Virus record (IMG/VR): IMGVR_UViG_3300030390_001550
Span: 26,232-90,231 of that record
Length of the DNA: 64,000 nt
Origin: a virus
Strand: one strand, 5' to 3'
Below the pieces are notes generated by a model. The model did no database searches. It saw nothing but the letters and a program-made list of their open reading frames with translations, and was not told where the DNA came from. The translations under genes were made by a program, and so were the position numbers. Positions 3,511 to 14,177 of this stretch are shown here, piece after piece. The stretch's first letter is position 1; each line of letters opens with the position of its first letter.

Positions 3511-3864
3511 ATGGCAAATAAAAAACCAAAGCAACTTGAACATGAATCAAAGTATGAATACCTAGATAGGGACGGGGATGGAATCATCTCTGATGATGAA
3601 ATGGCAAATGAAAAAAGAATGATTGAACTAGAAGATTTACGTTCTGATATGGAAAATGAGGACAAGAAGCAAGATGCTCAAAGAGCAATGGCATGGTTCG
3701 CGCTTGCTGGAATGTTACTATATCCATTTGCTGTTGTCCTCGCTGCATGGGTAGGTCTTGAAAAAGCACCTAATATTCTTGGTGATATGGCCCCTACATA
3801 CTTTGTTTCTGTTGCTGCTATTGTTGCAGCATTTTATGCTAAAGAAGTTCTACACAAGAAATGA
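3511..3864 (+). CDS. small membrane protein with EF-hand-like loop (holin-like)
   Basis: DRDGDGIISDDE loop followed by two hydrophobic helices. Confidence 0.55.
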   Translation: MANKKPKQLEHESKYEYLDRDGDGIISDDEMANEKRMIELEDLRSDMENEDKKQDAQRAMAWFALAGMLLYPFAVVLAAWVGLEKAPNILGDMAPTYFVSVAAIVAAFYAKEVLHKK

Positions 3865-3986
3865 AAAATATTAACACGATCAGAGATGTGTGTTATAATT
3901 GTAAGTGTAAATCTCACTGCGAGAAAGAATGTAAGTCTTGCAGAAATGATGTTTGTATAAAATGCGAGTGTCCTCGCTGTAAATAA
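3861..3986 (+). CDS. 41-aa Cys-rich metallothionein-like peptide (not in ORF track)
   Basis: MKNINTIRDVCYNCKCKSHCEKECKSCRNDVCIKCECPRCK, 10 Cys; ATGA overlap with upstream stop; fills the gap. Confidence 0.6.
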   Translation: MKNINTIRDVCYNCKCKSHCEKECKSCRNDVCIKCECPRCK

Positions 3987-5488: not shown

Positions 5489-6184
5489 ATGAAAACTAAT
5501 ATAATATATAATTCTATATCAGAAAAATCATCTGAAAATGCTCTACTTTGTAGACAATCTTTTAATAATTTTAAAGGTTGGGATGTTGAAATATTTGATG
5601 GTTGTAATCCATTAAACTTACATAAATATCACAATAAATATAATTTGAAAACCACTGAGAGAACACTACATCAAGATAGACCATTAGTGAAAATACATTC
5701 AAAGAAATGTTGTTTTTATTCCCATTACGAGTTATGGAATAGATGTGCTGAATCTGGAAAAAATATGGTTATAGTTGAGCATGATACTGAGTGTGTATTA
5801 GACAACAATATACCAGAGTTTGACCCAAAAGAAAAACTTGCAATGCAATTAAGTACTGATACCATTTTATGGAATTGGCCTTGGTACAATACCGAAAAAA
5901 ATAAAGAAAAATATGAAAAAAATGGTAGTGGTGTGCATGAAATATTTTATTCACAACCCAATGGTGTAAAATGTATGTCTGGTAATACTGCATATTTAAT
6001 AACACCAGCGGCATGTGAGCATTTAATACAAGATTGTATTAAAAATGGATGGACGCAAAACGATTTGTTAATAAATACAAGCCAATTTCCATTATATTAC
6101 TATGCGCCTTCACCAATCGCATATATAAAGTCAAGAGAATTGAGATCATCTAGTGTGGGCGTAATAAAGGATTTTATTAAATGA
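5489..6184 (+). CDS. glycosyltransferase family 25-like
   Basis: CFYSHYELW, IVEHD, GNTAYLITP...D motifs. Confidence 0.75.
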   Translation: MKTNIIYNSISEKSSENALLCRQSFNNFKGWDVEIFDGCNPLNLHKYHNKYNLKTTERTLHQDRPLVKIHSKKCCFYSHYELWNRCAESGKNMVIVEHDTECVLDNNIPEFDPKEKLAMQLSTDTILWNWPWYNTEKNKEKYEKNGSGVHEIFYSQPNGVKCMSGNTAYLITPAACEHLIQDCIKNGWTQNDLLINTSQFPLYYYAPSPIAYIKSRELRSSSVGVIKDFIK

Positions 6185-9801: not shown

Positions 9802-10860
9802 ATGAAAAAACTTTTAGCAATCGTAGCAGCGGGAATGATGTTAGCAACAAGCGCATTCGCTGGGGATAAAGTAAAAGTAGGGTTTGTCTACGTTGGACCA
9901 ACTGGTGATCATGGGTGGACATATCGTCATGATATTGGTCGCCAAGGAGTGCAAGACCATTTCGGTGACAAAGTTGAAACTGTATATGTAGAAAGTGTTA
10001 AAGAAGGTCCAGACGCTGCAAGAGTTATTCGTGGTATGGTAATGGACGGTGCTGATATTATTTTTACAACATCTTTTGGATATATGGAACAAACGCTAAA
10101 AATGGCGAAAATGTTTCCTAATGTAAAATTTGAACACGCAACTGGATATAAGCAAGCAAAGAATATGTCTAGTTATGGGCTTAGATTATATCAAGCACGA
10201 CACGTACAAGGTATTATTGCTGGACTTATGACAAAAACAAATAAGATTTGTTATGTTGCAGCATATCCAATTCCAGAAGTTATTCGTGAAATTAATACCT
10301 ATTTTATGGGCGCACGTAGAATGAATCCAGACGTTGAAATGGATATTGTATGGGTAAATACTTGGTATGATCCCGGAAAAGAGTCGGATGCTGCTAAAGC
10401 CCTCATGTCCCAAGGTTGTGATATGATTGCACAACACACAGACTCTCCTGCGCCAATGCAAGCAGCAGAGGCACAAGGTAGACATGGCTTTGGTCAGGCA
10501 TCAGATCAAATTGTGTTCGCGCCAGATGCACAATTGACTGCAACTATTGATAACTGGACTCCTTATTATATTCGTAAAGTTGGAGCAGTTATTGATGGAA
10601 CTTGGGAGAGTGAGAACTATTTTGGTGGTATGAAAGAGGGTGGTGTGCAAATGGCCCCATTTACCAATATGCCAGATGCAGTTCGCGCCAAAGCACAAGA
10701 GGTAAAAGACCAAATTGAAAATGGCGAATACTTTGCTTTCACTGGGCCATTATATGATAATGAAGGAAATCTTCAACTCGCTGAAGGTGAGGTCGCAACT
10801 GATTTTCAGTTAAATTCAATGAATTATTATGTTGAAGGAATTAACGCGAAAGTACCTTAA
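9802..10860 (+). CDS. BMP-family ABC substrate-binding protein (purine nucleoside-binding type)
   Basis: Signal peptide (AFA), KVGFVYVGPTGDHGWTYRH, FTTSFGYM, EHATGY, WYDPGKE, QHTDS. Confidence 0.92.
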   Translation: MKKLLAIVAAGMMLATSAFAGDKVKVGFVYVGPTGDHGWTYRHDIGRQGVQDHFGDKVETVYVESVKEGPDAARVIRGMVMDGADIIFTTSFGYMEQTLKMAKMFPNVKFEHATGYKQAKNMSSYGLRLYQARHVQGIIAGLMTKTNKICYVAAYPIPEVIREINTYFMGARRMNPDVEMDIVWVNTWYDPGKESDAAKALMSQGCDMIAQHTDSPAPMQAAEAQGRHGFGQASDQIVFAPDAQLTATIDNWTPYYIRKVGAVIDGTWESENYFGGMKEGGVQMAPFTNMPDAVRAKAQEVKDQIENGEYFAFTGPLYDNEGNLQLAEGEVATDFQLNSMNYYVEGINAKVP

Positions 10861-10913: not shown

Positions 10914-11495
10914 ATGAATAATACAACAAATGGCGGTTCACAACCAGCAATGATTCCACCAAAAATGCAATTAATTTCAAATGGAATGTATGTGTTTATG
11001 GGTGATGTGTCTATGGATACGATGAGTCCAATTATTGATTGGATATTATCAGAAAATATGAAAAGAAGTGATAGACAAAAAGAATTGACTTTAGGTATTT
11101 GCTCAAGAGGTGGTGATCTTAATGCTTGCTTTGCATTAGTTGATGTTTTGAGAGCATCAACAATTCCTGTTAAGACTGTAGGATTAGGTATGATTGCATC
11201 TTGTGGTTTGCTTTTATTTATATCTGGACAAAAAGGTAAAAGAATTTTAACACCAAATACTGCAATTTTATCTCATCAATATTCTTGGGGTAGTGTAGGT
11301 AAAGAACATGAATTGTTTGCCAGAGTGAAAGAGATGGAACTCACAACCGAGCGTATGATTAATCATTACAAAAAATGCACTGGGATGAATGAAAAAAAAG
11401 TAAGAGAGTTTCTTCTTCCACCAGAAGATGTTTGGTTAAGCGCAGAGGAAGCAAAAAGTTTAAAACTTTGTGATAAAATAGAAGATATACAATAA
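10914..11495 (+). CDS. clpP: ClpP-like serine protease
   Basis: ICSRGG, GLGMIASCG (Ser), KGKR, LSHQ (His), DVWLSAEEA (Asp). Confidence 0.85.
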   Translation: MNNTTNGGSQPAMIPPKMQLISNGMYVFMGDVSMDTMSPIIDWILSENMKRSDRQKELTLGICSRGGDLNACFALVDVLRASTIPVKTVGLGMIASCGLLLFISGQKGKRILTPNTAILSHQYSWGSVGKEHELFARVKEMELTTERMINHYKKCTGMNEKKVREFLLPPEDVWLSAEEAKSLKLCDKIEDIQ

Positions 11496-11523
11496 AAATA
11501 TTACTAAATACATCTAATGAGTT

Positions 11524-11550
11524 GAGGAAGCCTTGGCTTCCTCTTTTTTT
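11524..11550 (+). terminator. intrinsic terminator
   Basis: GAGGAAGC-CTTG-GCTTCCTC followed by T7. Confidence 0.85.
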
Positions 11551-11566
11551 AAAAGAAAGAGAGAAA

Positions 11567-12394
11567 ATGACACAACTGATAAATCCAAAGAAATTTACTA
11601 ACACTGTGGGGCTTTTACGCTCCTTTTTTTTGACCAGAGGGTTTCAAGAAGTACATACGCAAAATAGATTAAGCATTTTAGCAGCATGTGAAGACCCAGA
11701 AAATGTAGCAAGTTATAATTATGAAGGTGAGGTTTGGCCTTTACCGCAAACAGGTCAAATGTGGCTAGAACATGAATTATTATCTGATCCCTCTGCGAAG
11801 GGATTTTTTTGTGTCTCCACTTCATATAGACAAGAACCAAACGCAATTCCAGGTAGACACGATACGATTTTTCCTATGTTTGAATTTGAAATGGCAGGTG
11901 ATATTAATGATCTTAAAGTTATGGAAAGACAATTAGTAAGTCACTTAGGTTTTGACGATTGCACAGAGAAAACGTATGGAGAATGGCAGCAACATTATGG
12001 TGTTAGTGCAAATACCGAATTGGATGCCCAACATGAGTTGGCAATGCAAGCATCATTCGGTTCTTGTATGATTACAGATTTTCCAGAGATAACAAGTCCG
12101 TTTTGGAATATGTCTAGAAACGAGGATGGTACAAGTAGAAAAATTGATGTTATCCTTGGTGGTATGGAAACTATTGGTAGTGCAGAACGCAGTACCGACA
12201 AAGAACAAATGAGAAACACATTTAATACAATTTCTAATGGTGAATATGCTGGACTCATCAAGAGTTTATTTGGAGATGAAAGGGTTGAGGCAGAACTTGA
12301 AAAGTTTCTTGAGTTTGATTTCTTCCCAAGAGTTGGTGGTGGTATAGGGTTGACACGAATGATATCCGCTCTAGAAACTCAAAAGAGTAACTAA
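11567..12394 (+). CDS. class IIb aminoacyl-tRNA synthetase catalytic domain only (AsnRS/AS-AR-like), 275 aa
   Basis: Motif 1 LRSFFLTRGFQEVHTQ, LPQTGQMWLE, motif 2 SYRQE...RH...FPMFEFE, ETIGSAER, motif 3 GGGIGLTRM; no N-terminal OB domain. Confidence 0.85.
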   Translation: MTQLINPKKFTNTVGLLRSFFLTRGFQEVHTQNRLSILAACEDPENVASYNYEGEVWPLPQTGQMWLEHELLSDPSAKGFFCVSTSYRQEPNAIPGRHDTIFPMFEFEMAGDINDLKVMERQLVSHLGFDDCTEKTYGEWQQHYGVSANTELDAQHELAMQASFGSCMITDFPEITSPFWNMSRNEDGTSRKIDVILGGMETIGSAERSTDKEQMRNTFNTISNGEYAGLIKSLFGDERVEAELEKFLEFDFFPRVGGGIGLTRMISALETQKSN

Positions 12395-12403
12395 AGCGCA
12401 TAT

Positions 12404-12514
12404 TCTGGGGTGGTGGAATAGGTAGACACGCGATACTGTTTATATCGTGGATATATAGTTAAGTGTAAAAGACTATTTATATTCGTGAAGGTTCGAGTCC
12501 TTCCCCCAGAGCCA
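12404..12514 (+). tRNA. atypical tRNA-Asn(GTT) with 39-nt variable arm
   Basis: Acceptor TCTGGGG/CCCCAGA, G73, CCA; D-arm GTG-GAATAGGTAGA-CAC; anticodon arm CGATA-CTGTTTA-TATCG; T-arm GAAGG-TTCGAGT-CCTTC. Confidence 0.85.
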
Positions 12515-12528
12515 AAGGAAATAAAAAA

Positions 12529-13392
12529 ATGATACCAGTGATTGATTTAAATTCTTCATATGCAAATCAGCATATTGAGGATGCCTACACATCTGTGGGT
12601 TTTGCAGTTTTTACTAATAGTTTAACTCAAATTGAAAAGTCTGACATAATTAGTTGGTTTAGCGAAATGAAAGCATTTTTCAATTTACCTGATGAAATAA
12701 AGAAAAAATATCCATATGAAGGCGATACCAATCTAGGATATAGCATGGTGGGTGATGAAAATGTTGATCCAACAGCACCTAAAGACATTAAAGAATCTTT
12801 CAATTACAATAATACAAGAATGAGCGAATATCTTTGGCCCAAAGAACTTCCAGGATTTAAAGCAACAGCATTACAAAGTATTGATGTTGCAGACAAACTT
12901 ACGATTAGAATACTTAGTAGGTTTGATGAAATTCTAAAATGTGGCACTACTCTTGTGGACGCTCATATGAAACCATTTAACACTACAAGAGTTATTCATT
13001 ACCCAGCCCATGATGGTCCAGTAGAAGATAAGCAAATGAGAATAGGTGAACATAGTGACTATGGTACTATCACATTACTGTGGCAAATTAATGATGTTCC
13101 AGGATTGCAAGTTCAAGACTTAAAAGGAGAGTGGCATCCAGTGCCATATGATGTTGACGGTGTGGTTGTGAATATTGGCGATCTACTCCAGAGATGGACA
13201 AACGATTACTTTAAAAGCACTAAGCATAGAGTAGTTAATTCGCATATACATAAGACTAGATACAGTATGCCACATTTTGTTGATCCTACTCCAGGAACAA
13301 TGGTGAAAAATTTGAGAACCCATGAGGTTGACAAGTACTTACCTATTGAGAGTAAAGAATATTTGATGTGGAGACTAGCACAAAGTTATTGA
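12529..13392 (+). CDS. 2OG-Fe(II) oxygenase, isopenicillin N synthase family
   Basis: IPVIDL, HSDYGTITLL, GLQV, VNIGDLLQRWTN, HRV, RYS. Confidence 0.9.
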   Translation: MIPVIDLNSSYANQHIEDAYTSVGFAVFTNSLTQIEKSDIISWFSEMKAFFNLPDEIKKKYPYEGDTNLGYSMVGDENVDPTAPKDIKESFNYNNTRMSEYLWPKELPGFKATALQSIDVADKLTIRILSRFDEILKCGTTLVDAHMKPFNTTRVIHYPAHDGPVEDKQMRIGEHSDYGTITLLWQINDVPGLQVQDLKGEWHPVPYDVDGVVVNIGDLLQRWTNDYFKSTKHRVVNSHIHKTRYSMPHFVDPTPGTMVKNLRTHEVDKYLPIESKEYLMWRLAQSY

Positions 13393-13400
13393 GGTATATT

Positions 13401-14177
13401 ATGCATTCTTTAGTACTATTAGGATATGGGTTTGTTGGTAAGGCAGTACATGACGTACTGAAAGATCATCACAATATTATTATTGTAGACCCACAATATT
13501 CAAACGACACAGTAGAAGATCAAGTTGGAAAGGATGGTTACATAGTTTGCTTGCCCACCCCTCAAGGACAGTATGGTGAGTGTGATGTAAGTATTATTTT
13601 TGAAATGTTAAATAAAATTCCTGCTGTAGATGGTCAAGTTACAGAGGTTCTTATAAAATCTACTATATCAATAGAAGGTTGGAGAGAAATTGAAAAAGAT
13701 AATACGCATTTAAATATATGTTTTTCTCCAGAGTTTTTAACTGCTGCAAAAGCATCTGAAGATTTTAAAAATCAAGATAAAATGCTTTTCGGTGGTGGGA
13801 ATGAAGATTTCTGGATTAATGTTTTTGAACCTTGCAAAAAGTTTGATGCAGTCCGATCATCAATTCCTGAACTCATCATAACTAAATATGTTAGAAATTC
13901 TTTCCTAGCAACAAAAGTCGCGTTTTTTAATGAAGTTTATGATCTTTGTGCTTCTTTGAATATCCAATACGATGAAGTATCATATCTCGTAGGTATGGAT
14001 GAAAGGATTGGATATTCACATATAAGTGTTCCAGGTCCAGATGGTGATAGAGGTTTTGGCGGTGCTTGTTTTCCAAAAGACACACTTGCTTTGCAGCATT
14101 CAGCGGAAAGTAGGGATCAGCATCTTAATATTTTAAATGCTGCAATTGCATCAAATAGAAATAAGAGAAAACTATGA
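13401..14177 (+). CDS. ugd: UDP-glucose 6-dehydrogenase (short phage form)
   Basis: GYGFVG, CLPTP, IKST, FSPEFL, NSFLATKVAFFNE, GFGGACFPKD. Confidence 0.85.
   Translation: MHSLVLLGYGFVGKAVHDVLKDHHNIIIVDPQYSNDTVEDQVGKDGYIVCLPTPQGQYGECDVSIIFEMLNKIPAVDGQVTEVLIKSTISIEGWREIEKDNTHLNICFSPEFLTAAKASEDFKNQDKMLFGGGNEDFWINVFEPCKKFDAVRSSIPELIITKYVRNSFLATKVAFFNEVYDLCASLNIQYDEVSYLVGMDERIGYSHISVPGPDGDRGFGGACFPKDTLALQHSAESRDQHLNILNAAIASNRNKRKL

What the first reader, a model, noticed from the sequence alone, without database searches (positions are those of the whole stretch)
11567..12514. Anticodon-domain-less AsnRS-like enzyme with an adjacent giant-variable-arm tRNA-Asn: candidate dedicated synthetase/tRNA pair
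Seen: a 275-aa class IIb catalytic core (motifs 1-3, no N-terminal OB fold) ends at 12394. Nine nt later begins a complete 111-nt cloverleaf with GTT anticodon, U1-A72, G73 and encoded CCA, about 6 kb from the other tRNAs. Established: normal AsnRS reads the anticodon with the OB domain; tRNA-Asn is type I (short variable loop); synthetases that largely ignore the anticodon (SerRS, LeuRS) use type II tRNAs; catalytic-only paralogs are normally non-tRNA enzymes (archaeal AS-AR asparagine synthetase, EpmA). Inference: the matching Asn identity and tight linkage suggest a co-evolved pair in which the long RNA arm replaces the missing protein domain. This could give an orthogonal Asn/Asp charging system, either for translation that resists host tRNA attack or as a non-ribosomal aminoacyl donor.
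Basis: partly seen in the sequence, partly recalled or inferred. Interest (0 to 1): 0.92.

Follow-up and report, generated by a model that had tools for sequence, protein, structure and literature searches.

The report
Phage AsnRS-like enzyme with captive tRNA
A marine phage carries a cut-down look-alike of the asparagine tRNA-charging enzyme followed nine bases later by an oddly built asparagine tRNA that is found only behind this gene, while the enzyme's relatives in bacteria occur where the first enzymes of pyrimidine synthesis are missing, so it is probably an untested nucleotide-precursor enzyme with its own tRNA partner.

Summary
ORF 11567-12394 is a 275-aa class IIb synthetase catalytic core without an anticodon-binding domain. 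Nine bases later lies a 111-nt cloverleaf (12404-12514) with GTT anticodon, U1-A72, G73, CCA and a 39-nt variable region. The link is real and one-sided. Of 80 close viral relatives of the enzyme, 75 have this tRNA just downstream. Of 76 assessable viral loci found by a tRNA pattern alone, 76 have the enzyme just upstream. The cloverleaf covaries (15 of 20 pairs compensatory). The enzyme also occurs without any such tRNA in other phages, giant-virus bins and 71 cellular genomes. There it is fused to or beside PyrD/PyrF/phosphoribosyltransferase genes. None of the 71 has aspartate carbamoyltransferase (controls 14 of 14). In 21 of them, none has PyrC and one has CarB. My reading: an AsnRS-derived enzyme that feeds dihydroorotate into pyrimidine synthesis, probably from asparagine, ATP and CO2. 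In marine T4-like phages it has acquired a dependent Leu-bodied tRNA(GUU), probably acylated from its Asn-AMP. Nothing has been tested at the bench, and my paper searches found no description. This scan has already reported the same module on other DNA, with the same reading.

The parts
11524..11543 (+). Terminator-like hairpin plus T run behind the upstream ClpP-like gene; marks the 5' boundary of the module
   Evidence: 8-pair stem with 5 G-C pairs, followed by TTTTTTT. 4 terminator-like sites were found in 11300-12800, against 0.6 expected from shuffles.
11567..12394 (+). Stand-alone AsnRS-derived class IIb catalytic core, 275 aa, no anticodon-binding domain
   Evidence: Pfam PF00152 57.3 bits. 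AlphaFold model built on 45 sequences has pLDDT 95.1. Foldseek top hits are AsnRS 1x54 (E 5.8e-18, TM 0.78) and 9sh8. The family profile matches AsnRS 2xti at 5.3e-14, AspRS at 5.5e-11 and AS-AR 3p8t at 8.1e-6. Residues E42, Q61, Q64, E68, R88, E90, R97, H98, E106, E108, D194, E201, R208, R255 and R264 are shared by phage, cellular and distant viral members.
12395..12403 (+). 9-nt spacer between the stop codon and tRNA position 1
   Evidence: In relatives the spacer is 4-11 nt (one script mis-registration, L047, set aside), except L061 with about 133 nt.
12404..12514 (+). Type II (long variable arm) tRNA with GUU anticodon, U1-A72, C2-G71, G73 and encoded CCA
   Evidence: Rfam 43.8 bits. Own covariance model R1 scores 95.2 bits. 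Covariation shown.
12438..12440 (+). Anticodon GTT in the loop CTGTTTA (12436-12442), with a pyrimidine (U) at position 37
   Evidence: GTT is invariant in 57 of 57 distinct copies. Position 37 is T in 44, A in 10 and C in 3.
12448..12486 (+). 39-nt variable region that folds as a hairpin of about 12 pairs, the largest size class in the family
   Evidence: The region is 13-39 nt long across the 57 copies and nearly all fold as hairpins.
12487..12503 (+). T arm GAAGG-TTCGAGT-CCTTC
   Evidence: helix 4 is 100% paired.

Best explanation
The ORF belongs to a large unnamed family of stand-alone catalytic cores derived from asparaginyl-tRNA synthetase.

Shown:
- The Asn-type pocket and the ATP site are intact.
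- The same core, 55-60% identical, occurs in bacteria and giant-virus bins beside or fused to PyrD, PyrF and a phosphoribosyltransferase.
- None of the ligase-bearing cellular genomes I searched has aspartate carbamoyltransferase. In the subset tested, none has the type of dihydroorotase I searched for and almost none has carbamoyl-phosphate synthetase.

Inferred: the enzyme supplies dihydroorotate, the substrate of PyrD, in one step. My proposed chemistry has three stages:
1. Asn + ATP gives enzyme-bound Asn-AMP, the normal first half-reaction of AsnRS.
2. CO2 adds to the alpha-amine and closes an N-carboxyanhydride.
3. The side-chain amide nitrogen attacks that carbonyl to give L-dihydroorotate.

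In the phage the enzyme would be an auxiliary metabolic gene. It would feed the host's PyrD-PyrE-PyrF from asparagine and bypass the regulated early steps.

The tRNA has a leucine-tRNA-like body with asparagine marks (GUU, G73, U1-A72). It is found only behind this gene. Inferred: it depends on the enzyme because the enzyme transfers Asn from Asn-AMP to its 3' end. G73 and C2-G71 would keep host LeuRS, TyrRS and SerRS off it. I cannot decide whether Asn-tRNA then serves translation of AAY codons or acts as a carrier or regulator for the pyrimidine reaction.
For: Enzyme identity:
- Searches place it in the class IIb catalytic fold, closest to AsnRS.
- One search aligns the family motif QTGQMxLE with AsnRS QSSQLYLE, SYRxE..GRH with motif 2, and D..E..GSAER with D..E..GGSMR.

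Pyrimidine link:
- P0124 is a fusion of DHO_dh with the ligase. P0136 is a fusion of the ligase with OMP decarboxylase.
- In Bandiella (L177) the order is ligase, PyrF, PRTase, DHO_dh-like. In Phocoenobacter (L200) a divergent PyrD is followed by ligase, PyrF and PRTase. In L194 the order is PRTase, amidohydrolase, lyase, ligase.
- In giant-virus bin G035 the ligase lies next to a fused PyrF-PyrD frame.
- PyrB is over its cut-off in 0 of 20, 0 of 50 and 0 of 1 (G046) ligase-bearing genomes. These include genomes of 4.2-6.9 Mb. Controls give 14 of 14.
- PyrC (TIGR00857) is over cut-off in 0 of 21, and CarB in 1 of 21.
- PyrD is present in 14 of 20 and PyrF in 12 of 20.
- Within one bacterial family, the ligase is in 2 of 18 genomes without PyrB and in 0 of 63 with it.
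- The enzyme is not needed as a synthetase in cells. 19 of 20 genomes have AsnRS or GatB over cut-off, and the twentieth has gatB in three pieces.

Phage members:
- They keep every shared catalytic residue.
- 8 pair-bearing loci have a short DHO_dh-like gene beside the pair, and 8 have a short PRTase-like gene.

tRNA dependence:
- 75 of 80 close viral loci have the tRNA.
- 76 of 76 assessable loci found by tRNA pattern alone have the ligase directly upstream.
- It is the only tRNA in the complete genomes of P-SSM2 and P-SSM5.

Identity marks and chemistry:
- For E. coli, G73 is an antideterminant for LeuRS and TyrRS, and C2-G71 for SerRS. The anticodon plus G73 give Asn identity, and U1-A72 is the mark read by GatCAB (passages of PMC9976931).
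- Aminoacyl adenylates go to N-carboxyanhydrides at ocean or physiological CO2 levels (abstract of PMC4262824).
Against: - No biochemical data exist for any member.
- 8 of 20 ligase-bearing genomes, mostly small Patescibacteria, have no PyrF at all. 6 of 20 have no PyrD. The pyrimidine role therefore cannot be universal, or those genomes are incomplete or rely on a host.
- Many of the 71 genomes are reduced symbionts or MAGs, which would lack PyrB anyway. The informative ones are the 11 of the first 20 that have both PyrD and PyrF.
- TIGR00857 models one type of dihydroorotase, so the absence of PyrC is less secure than that of PyrB.
- This window's own record (90 kb, 44% complete), P-SSM2 and P-SSM7 carry no PyrD or PyrF.
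- The anticodon is invariant although the enzyme has nothing to read it with. That points to the ribosome or to host AsnRS/ND-AspRS as a reader.
- The partnered enzymes are more acidic than the cellular ones and show no tRNA-specific residues.
- The N-carboxyanhydride mechanism is my own inference.
Confidence: 0.5

Rival explanations
1. One reading: a dedicated, orthogonal mini-AsnRS and tRNA pair that serves translation only. It would supply Asn-tRNA for the AT-rich phage, or resist host attack on tRNA. The enzyme would have no metabolic role in the phage.
For: - The Asn-type pocket and motifs 2 and 3 are intact.
- The tRNA has the full Asn acceptor set and an invariant GUU.
- The tRNA is never seen without the enzyme.
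- G73 and C2-G71 should insulate it from host type II synthetases.
- Anticodon-loop variation (U, A or C at position 37) could reflect escape from host anticodon nucleases. This last point is recalled from the literature and not checked here.
Against: - Enzymes 55-60% identical, with the same catalytic residues, work without any such tRNA in 70 cellular loci. Those organisms already have AsnRS or GatCAB, and their ligase sits in pyrimidine gene clusters.
- A pyrimidine at position 37 in 47 of 57 copies is a poor fit for decoding AAY codons.
- No RNA-binding gain is visible in the protein.
Confidence: 0.2
2. The enzyme is metabolic and the tRNA is functionally unrelated to it. On this reading it is an ordinary decoding tRNA-Asn with a drifted body, charged by host AsnRS or ND-AspRS plus GatCAB. 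It would stay next to the gene because 4-11 nt leave no room for recombination, or because it serves as a 3' processing or stabilising element of the mRNA.
For: - All known bacterial Asn determinants (anticodon, G73) and the GatCAB mark U1-A72 are present.
- The anticodon is invariant, which an enzyme without an anticodon domain cannot enforce.
- A distant locus (L097) has the same kind of tRNA with GTC instead of GTT, as expected of a decoder.
- No terminator lies between the ORF and the tRNA.
- One metatranscriptome contig of a relative spans both genes.
Against: - The asymmetry: the tRNA was lost in 5 of 80 close loci, but the enzyme was never lost with the tRNA kept, in 0 of 76.
- It is the sole tRNA of the 252-kb phages P-SSM2 and P-SSM5. 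That is hard to explain by codon supply alone.
- The pair moves as a unit between different neighbourhoods.
- The long arm and U37 are maintained by selection across 64-95% protein identity.
Confidence: 0.2
3. The enzyme is an asparagine synthetase of the AsnA or archaeal AS-AR kind (Asp + NH3 + ATP gives Asn). It would raise the Asn supply alongside an extra tRNA-Asn.
For: - It has the same architecture: a class IIb core without an anticodon domain.
- There are weak matches to AS-AR 3p8t (E 8.1e-6) and to NF005055 (16.9 bits).
Against: - It is far below the family cut-off (16.9 against 389 bits).
- It is closer to AsnRS than to AS-AR.
- Where AspRS has a Lys (recalled), this family has the AsnRS-type L-E.
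- The genomic company is PyrD, PyrF and PRTase, not asparagine metabolism.
- Asparagine synthesis would not explain why PyrB is absent in 0 of 71.
Confidence: 0.05

Closest known systems
Asparaginyl-tRNA synthetase, class IIb catalytic domain (PDB 1x54, 9sh8, 2xti/2xgt, 8tc7/8h53)
   Same: Same fold (TM 0.75-0.78 on the query). Best profile match. Shares QxxQxxLE, motif 2 SYRxE..RH, D..E..GSxR and motif 3 GGGIGxxR.
   Different: It has no anticodon-binding OB domain and scores 24 bits against a 342.6-bit cut-off for TIGR00457. Cellular members coexist with a normal AsnRS or GatCAB and sit in pyrimidine gene clusters.
Archaeal AS-AR and bacterial AsnA asparagine synthetases (PDB 3p8t, 1nnh)
   Same: These are also class IIb cores without an anticodon domain, recruited to metabolism.
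   Different: The match is much weaker (E 8.1e-6, against 5.3e-14 for AsnRS; 16.9 against 389 bits). The gene neighbourhood differs. No tRNA partner is known for AS-AR (recalled).
Carbamoyl-phosphate synthetase + aspartate carbamoyltransferase + dihydroorotase (CarAB, PyrB, PyrC)
   Same: Proposed to give the same product, dihydroorotate, for PyrD. The family occurs where these enzymes are missing.
   Different: The fold and chemistry are unrelated. It would be one ATP-dependent enzyme in place of three steps. The activity is inferred and not shown.
Type II tRNAs (Leu, Ser, bacterial Tyr)
   Same: It has a 3-pair D stem and a long variable-arm hairpin. The best non-member hits of model R1 are tRNA-Leu genes: the window's own at 47.7 bits, and tRNA-Leu genes among the best hits in the two huge phages.
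   Different: It has a GUU anticodon, G73 and U1-A72, which are the Asn marks. The arm reaches 39 nt. Position 37 is mostly a pyrimidine.
Dedicated synthetase-tRNA pairs such as PylRS/tRNAPyl (recalled; PMC1851642 seen only in a search listing)
   Same: The enzyme and its tRNA are encoded side by side. The enzyme cannot read the anticodon. The tRNA has an unusual body.
   Different: Here the anticodon is a sense anticodon and is invariant. The enzyme family mostly lives without the tRNA and appears to be metabolic.
Synthetase paralogues without an anticodon domain that work in metabolism or on tRNA (HisZ in histidine synthesis, GluQRS on tRNA-Asp, EpmA on EF-P; all recalled)
   Same: The evolutionary route is the same: a truncated catalytic core put to a new use.
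   Different: None is AsnRS-derived, none is linked to pyrimidine genes, and none has a private tRNA gene. The EpmA model scores 16.8 against 286.9 bits.

Membership tests
Canonical AsnRS (TIGR00457) | Class IIb catalytic core with motifs 2 and 3 and an Asn-type pocket | tested here: met
   The roles of the L-E and GSxR residues are recalled from the AsnRS literature.
Canonical AsnRS (TIGR00457) | N-terminal OB-fold anticodon-binding domain; full-length score over cut-off | tested here: not met
   The 275-aa protein starts at the catalytic core. It scores 24.1 bits against a cut-off of 342.6.
Canonical AsnRS (TIGR00457) | Charges tRNA-Asn with asparagine | not testable with these tools
   Needs an aminoacylation assay.
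Asparagine synthetase A / archaeal AS-AR (NF005055) | Sequence membership over cut-off | tested here: not met
   16.9 bits against 389. 3p8t matches at E 8.1e-6, weaker than AsnRS and AspRS.
EpmA/PoxA (TIGR00462) | Sequence membership over cut-off | tested here: not met
   16.8 bits against 286.9.
tRNA (Rfam RF00005) | Cloverleaf over the gathering score, maintained by compensatory change | tested here: met
   43.8 bits against 29. 15 of 20 pairs are compensatory and 99.9% of cells are paired.
Bacterial tRNA-Asn | GUU anticodon, G73 and U1-A72 | tested here: met
   Invariant in 57 of 57 distinct copies. Determinants taken from PMC9976931 passages.
Bacterial tRNA-Asn | Type I body (4-5 nt variable loop) and a purine at position 37 | tested here: not met
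   36-nt insertion in the variable region. Position 37 is T or C in 47 of 57 copies.
Type II tRNA-Leu | Long-arm body together with A73 | tested here: not met
   The body matches (R1 hits tRNA-Leu). The discriminator is G in 57 of 57 copies.
De novo pyrimidine gene set (as a new first step) | Encoded beside or fused to PyrD, PyrE or PyrF | tested here: inconclusive
   Met for cellular and giant-virus relatives. Partly met for 8 + 8 pair-bearing phage loci with short DHO_dh-like or PRTase-like genes. Not met in this window or its 90-kb record.
De novo pyrimidine gene set (as a new first step) | Occurs where CarB, PyrB and PyrC are missing | tested here: met
   PyrB in 0 of 71, PyrC (TIGR00857) in 0 of 21, CarB in 1 of 21. 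Controls: 14 of 14, 11 of 14 over cut-off, and 14 of 14.
De novo pyrimidine gene set (as a new first step) | Makes dihydroorotate | not testable with these tools
   Needs an enzyme assay or genetic complementation.

The most novel reading that the evidence does not exclude
One AsnRS-derived enzyme turns asparagine, CO2 and ATP into dihydroorotate through enzyme-bound Asn-AMP and an N-carboxyanhydride. It would replace carbamoyl-phosphate synthetase, aspartate carbamoyltransferase and dihydroorotase in many bacteria, giant viruses and phages. In marine T4-like phages the same active site also loads a private Leu-bodied tRNA(GUU), so that a single enzyme divides activated asparagine between pyrimidine synthesis and a tRNA. 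This would be a natural orthogonal enzyme-tRNA pair grown out of a metabolic enzyme.
Probability: 0.3. Interest if true: 0.95.

Novelty: categorically new. Interest (0 to 1): 0.82.

Why it matters
- If the enzyme makes dihydroorotate from asparagine, it is a new entry into pyrimidine synthesis. It would explain why many genomes keep PyrD, PyrE and PyrF without CarAB, PyrB or PyrC. These include free-living Bacteroidota of 4-7 Mb, Rickettsiales, Dependentiae and Patescibacteria. Such genomes would then be wrongly scored as pyrimidine auxotrophs.
- In the ocean the gene is very common in phage DNA. It would therefore be a major, overlooked auxiliary metabolic gene.
- The tRNA is the first type II tRNA with asparagine marks that I know of. 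It exists only behind this gene. If the enzyme charges it without reading the anticodon, the pair is a ready-made orthogonal system for genetic-code engineering. It would also be a living example of a synthetase core and a tRNA finding each other anew.
- Annotation pipelines mis-call or miss this tRNA.

Tried and rejected
- Single-sequence AlphaFold gave a useless model (pLDDT 44). It was replaced by the alignment-based model.
- phmmer of the single protein against PDB gave only weak LysRS and AspRS pieces. It was replaced by the profile search.
- blastn of the tRNA against phage records found only partial matches to ordinary tRNAs.
- blastn of 8 kb of the window found no close cultured phage, so the host stays unknown.
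- Scans with P0140 and P0193 found no viral relatives.
- I considered that Ala93 in the motif-2 loop (Pro in 99% of cellular members) might mark tRNA partnership. Rejected: the five close loci without a tRNA have Ala, and P-SSM-type and other partnered loci have Pro.
- I considered that partnered enzymes would be more basic. The opposite is seen.
- I considered that the enzyme is the sole AsnRS of reduced bacteria. Rejected: AsnRS or GatB is present in 19 of 20.
- Metatranscriptome contigs hold the ORF, the ORF-tRNA junction (12117-12413, identical, run X15) and, for a relative about 93% alike, the whole module (11453-12547, run X16). DNA carry-over is not excluded and contigs cannot show tRNA ends, so I draw no conclusion on expression or processing. 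Parts without cover mean nothing.
- The claim in earlier notes that the cyanobacterial hosts lack AsnRS was not tested, because I had no handle on a host genome.
- L109, L110 and L111 were not held for whole-record searches.
- I asked for no supplementary files, so they bear on no claim here.
- Paper searches that found no description of this pair or of an AsnRS-like pyrimidine enzyme. Sullivan et al. 2010 (PMC3037559, one passage seen) only lists 'tRNA ligase' (T4-GC 194) in a table of sporadic genes.
Full report
WHAT IS THERE. The window lies in a 90-kb IMG/VR virus record judged 44% complete. The ORF 11567-12394 (+) encodes 275 aa. Pfam sees only the class II D/K/N catalytic domain: PF00152, 57.3 bits, profile positions 27-296 of 308. 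All NCBIfam synthetase, AS-A and EpmA models score far below their cut-offs. Nine bases after the stop begins a 111-nt tRNA at 12404-12514. Rfam scores it 43.8 bits against a gathering score of 29, with a 36-nt insertion in the variable region. ARAGORN does not find it. It has U1-A72, C2-G71, a 3-pair D stem, anticodon loop CUGUUUA (GUU, U37), a 39-nt variable hairpin, G73 and an encoded CCA. A terminator-like hairpin (11524-11543) closes the upstream ClpP-like gene. The next gene, a 2OG-Fe(II) oxygenase, starts 14 nt after the CCA.

THE PAIR IS CONSERVED AND THE tRNA IS UNDER SELECTION. tblastn finds the protein in Prochlorococcus phages P-SSM7 (69%) and P-SSM2/P-SSM5 (63-64%). There it is annotated 'tRNA ligase' and is followed 7-9 nt later by an 85-89-nt 'tRNA-Asn'. 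IMG/VR holds at least 597 relatives. Of the best 80 (74-95% identity), 74 have the tRNA by script, at a spacing of 4-11 nt, with L061 at about 133 nt. L023 shows the first 43 model positions before its contig ends. L010, L016, L032, L035 and L071 have none. The total is therefore 75 of 80. The 57 distinct tRNA sequences align into a cloverleaf in which 99.9% of 1140 cells pair, against 82.3% in shuffles. 15 of 20 pairs change on both sides, and 0 of 500 shuffles reach the observed values. Invariant features are U1-A72, G73 and GTT. CCA is encoded in 55 of 57 copies and C2-G71 is present in 48 of 57. Position 37 is T in 44, A in 10 and C in 3. The variable region is 13-39 nt and falls into three size classes, nearly all of which fold as hairpins.

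REVERSE TEST. I scanned IMG/VR with a pattern for a type II tRNA with GTT. The pattern contains nothing from the enzyme (at least 120 stretches, 80 listed). In 76 loci the enzyme lies directly upstream on the same strand. In 4 loci fewer than 90 nt of sequence remain upstream. In 0 loci is there room but no enzyme. The tRNA is the only tRNA in the complete P-SSM2 and P-SSM5 genomes and one of four in P-SSM7.

WHAT KIND OF tRNA. Covariance model R1, built from the 57 copies, gives its best non-member scores to tRNA-Leu genes. These are the window's own tRNA-Leu at 47.7 bits and tRNA-Leu genes of the two huge phages. The body is therefore Leu-like. According to the identity review PMC9976931 (passages):
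- Bacterial Asn identity is the anticodon plus G73.
- GatCAB reads U1-A72.
- In E. coli, G73 is an antideterminant for LeuRS and TyrRS, and C2-G71 is one for SerRS.
That last step is inference.

WHAT KIND OF ENZYME. A model built on 45 family members has pLDDT 95.1. Foldseek ranks AsnRS 1x54 (E 5.8e-18, TM 0.78) and 9sh8 first, followed by AspRS and LysRS. A family profile matches AsnRS 2xti at 5.3e-14, AspRS 3i7f at 5.5e-11, AS-AR 3p8t at 8.1e-6 and the 3g1z/3a5z proteins at about 1.5e-5. The printed alignments pair the family's features with those of AsnRS:
- AACEDP with vEGG.
- PLPQTGQMxLE with LTQSSQLYLE.
- SYRxE..GRH..FEFE with SYRAE..RRH..VEAE.
- DVIL.G.ETIGSAER with DLLMPGVGEIVGGSMR.
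From memory, AspRS has Lys-Gln where AsnRS and this family have Leu-Glu, and the Glu and the GSxR arginine hold the asparagine amide. The pocket is therefore of the Asn type.

THE WIDER FAMILY DOES NOT HAVE THE tRNA. A search of 1.84 billion representatives finds 663 clusters at 50% identity, nearly all of 260-320 aa.
- Viral relatives of P0263: only 1 of 13 loci has a tRNA behind the gene (L097). It is the same type II design but with anticodon GTC.
- Viral relatives of P0143: only 1 of 7 loci (L105), with GTT and A1-U72.
- Viral relatives of P0125: 0 of 14 loci. Some of these lie in giant-virus bins.
- Two huge phages with homologues 42-47% identical carry ordinary 74-77-nt tRNA-Asn genes elsewhere and no long-arm GTT tRNA.
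- Two phage records of 222 and 161 kb give no R1 match at all.

CELLULAR RELATIVES AND PYRIMIDINE GENES. Two long representatives are fusions: P0124 is DHO_dh plus ligase, and P0136 is ligase plus OMP decarboxylase. A scan of one genome per prokaryote species found 380 relatives. Among the 80 loci kept, the 7 with an R1 hit of 70 bits or more just downstream are 59-85% identical to the window protein. They are probably phage contigs binned into MAGs, which I did not check. L137-L139 (62-66% identical) have no R1 hit either and were not examined further. The 70 loci L140-L211, leaving out L141 and L189, are 54-60% identical and have no such tRNA. They come from Patescibacteria, Rickettsiales (Bandiella, Midichloriaceae), Dependentiae, Aureispira, Weeksellaceae and a Phocoenobacter isolate. 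Several lie on complete chromosomes.

Neighbours of the ligase:
- Bandiella: ligase, PyrF, PRTase, DHO_dh-like.
- Phocoenobacter: the genome's only PyrD (278 bits), divergent, then ligase, a second PyrF and a PRTase.
- A Patescibacterium (L194): PRTase, amidohydrolase, lyase, ligase.
- Giant-virus bin G035: ligase beside a fused PyrF-PyrD frame.

Whole-genome searches of the ligase-bearing genomes:
- PyrB over cut-off in 0 of 20, 0 of 50 and 0 of 1 (G046). Controls: 14 of 14.
- PyrC TIGR00857 over cut-off in 0 of 21. Controls: 11 of 14 over cut-off and 14 of 14 matching.
- CarB over cut-off in 1 of 21. Controls: 14 of 14.
- PyrD in 14 of 20 and PyrF in 12 of 20, with both in 11 of 20.
The set includes genomes of 4.2-6.9 Mb.

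In a sample of 81 genomes from the bacterial family of G017, PyrB is over cut-off in 63. The ligase (405 bits) is in two genomes, both among the 18 without PyrB. By my own arithmetic the one-sided chance of that is 153/3240, about 0.05. In 19 of the 20 genomes AsnRS or GatB is over cut-off, and G020 has gatB in three pieces. The cells therefore do not need this protein to make Asn-tRNA.

BACK TO THE PHAGE. Phage, cellular and distant viral members share all catalytic residues, so the same reaction is expected. Beside the pair, 8 phage loci also carry a short DHO_dh-like gene. In L012 it lies directly upstream. Another 8 loci carry a short PRTase-like gene homologous to the Bandiella one. In L054 and L058 it lies directly behind the tRNA. 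The window's own record, P-SSM2 and P-SSM7 have no PyrD or PyrF. There the enzyme would have to feed the host's pathway.

HOW IT MOST LIKELY WORKS.
Shown: an intact AsnRS-type active site; a pyrimidine gene neighbourhood; the absence of the first pathway enzymes; and a one-sided dependence of the tRNA on the enzyme.
Inferred: the enzyme delivers dihydroorotate. Asparagine already holds N1, C6, C5, C4 and N3 of the ring. Only C2 is missing, and CO2 can supply it. Aminoacyl adenylates are converted by CO2 to N-carboxyanhydrides at ocean and physiological CO2 levels (abstract of PMC4262824). Attack of the side-chain amide on the anhydride carbonyl would then give L-dihydroorotate. In this scheme the ordinary first half-reaction of AsnRS is kept. 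That would also leave the enzyme able to hand Asn to a 3' end that docks by G73 and U1-A72, and it would explain why a tRNA that host type II synthetases should refuse survives only next to this gene. I cannot tell whether the Asn-tRNA is used on the ribosome or as a carrier or regulator. The invariant anticodon argues for decoding, or for a host reader of the anticodon. The pyrimidine at position 37 argues against efficient decoding.

EVIDENCE AGAINST, AND LIMITS.
- 8 of 20 ligase-bearing genomes have no PyrF.
- Many genomes are MAGs or reduced symbionts.
- Only one dihydroorotase model was used.
- The partnered enzymes are more acidic (median pI 4.68, net charge -19) than the cellular ones (5.26).
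- No residue tracks the tRNA.
- Host AsnRS or ND-AspRS might charge the tRNA.
- RNA-library contigs cover the module, but they prove neither transcription nor processing.

NOVELTY. The gene is listed only as 'tRNA ligase' in Sullivan et al. 2010 (PMC3037559, one passage). The pelagimyophage paper PMC7029224 (passages) and the jumbo-phage review PMC7824862 (one passage) do not mention it in what I saw. Eight full-text searches found no description of the pair, of a type II tRNA-Asn, or of an AsnRS-like pyrimidine enzyme. This scan has reported the same module on other DNA at least 15 times, with the same two readings. I re-tested their main claims here and they held. The one exception is the claim that the hosts lack AsnRS, which I could not test.

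Noticed in passing
L002 (AY939844.2, P-SSM2), locus 3814-3902 versus the annotated 5825-5910: The GenBank tRNA-Asn feature of P-SSM2 (record 164094-164179) does not lie on the tRNA. ARAGORN and Rfam place the tRNA at record 162083-162168, directly behind the 'tRNA ligase'. The annotated position falls inside a hypothetical CDS.
   Followed up: partly
L097:1529-1615: A distant homologue of the enzyme is followed by the same type II design (U1-A72, G73, U37) but with anticodon GTC (Asp) instead of GTT. This is the only such case seen.
   Followed up: partly
L105:1558-1644 and L105:3616-3701(-): Another distant homologue has a GTT long-arm tRNA with A1-U72 and no encoded CCA. A tRNA-Leu(CAA) lies 2 kb away on the other strand.
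   Followed up: no
L017-L055: ARAGORN mis-calls the 99-104-nt versions of this tRNA as tRNA-Asp(atc), Gly(acc), Ile(aat), Glu(ctc) or a suppressor (tta). It misses the 107-111-nt versions altogether. Automatic annotation of these phages will therefore be wrong or blank at this gene.
   Followed up: partly
window 9802-10860, 10914-11495, 12529-13392, 13368-14177: Neighbours of the module are a Bmp/PnrA-like ABC substrate-binding protein, a ClpP-like protease, a 2OG-Fe(II) oxygenase and a UDP-glucose/GDP-mannose dehydrogenase-like protein. The same oxygenase follows the pair in several relatives, and in L010 it follows the enzyme directly with no tRNA between.
   Followed up: no
G007 (Phocoenobacter), C11:81499-82131 and C67:54512-55126: This isolate has two OMP decarboxylases, a strong one (150.8 bits) and a divergent one (87.3 bits) next to the ligase. 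It has a single PyrD, which lies beside the ligase.
   Followed up: no
L129 c[1697,1787] (LR756501.1): ARAGORN calls a 91-nt tRNA with a four-base anticodon (ttac) in the huge phage's tRNA cluster.
   Followed up: no
window 12177-12290: Metatranscriptome contigs of two runs from one study join 12177 to 12290, skipping 112 bases inside the ORF. The shorter side is only 29 letters and likeness is 90-95%, so the contigs probably come from a diverged relative.
   Followed up: no
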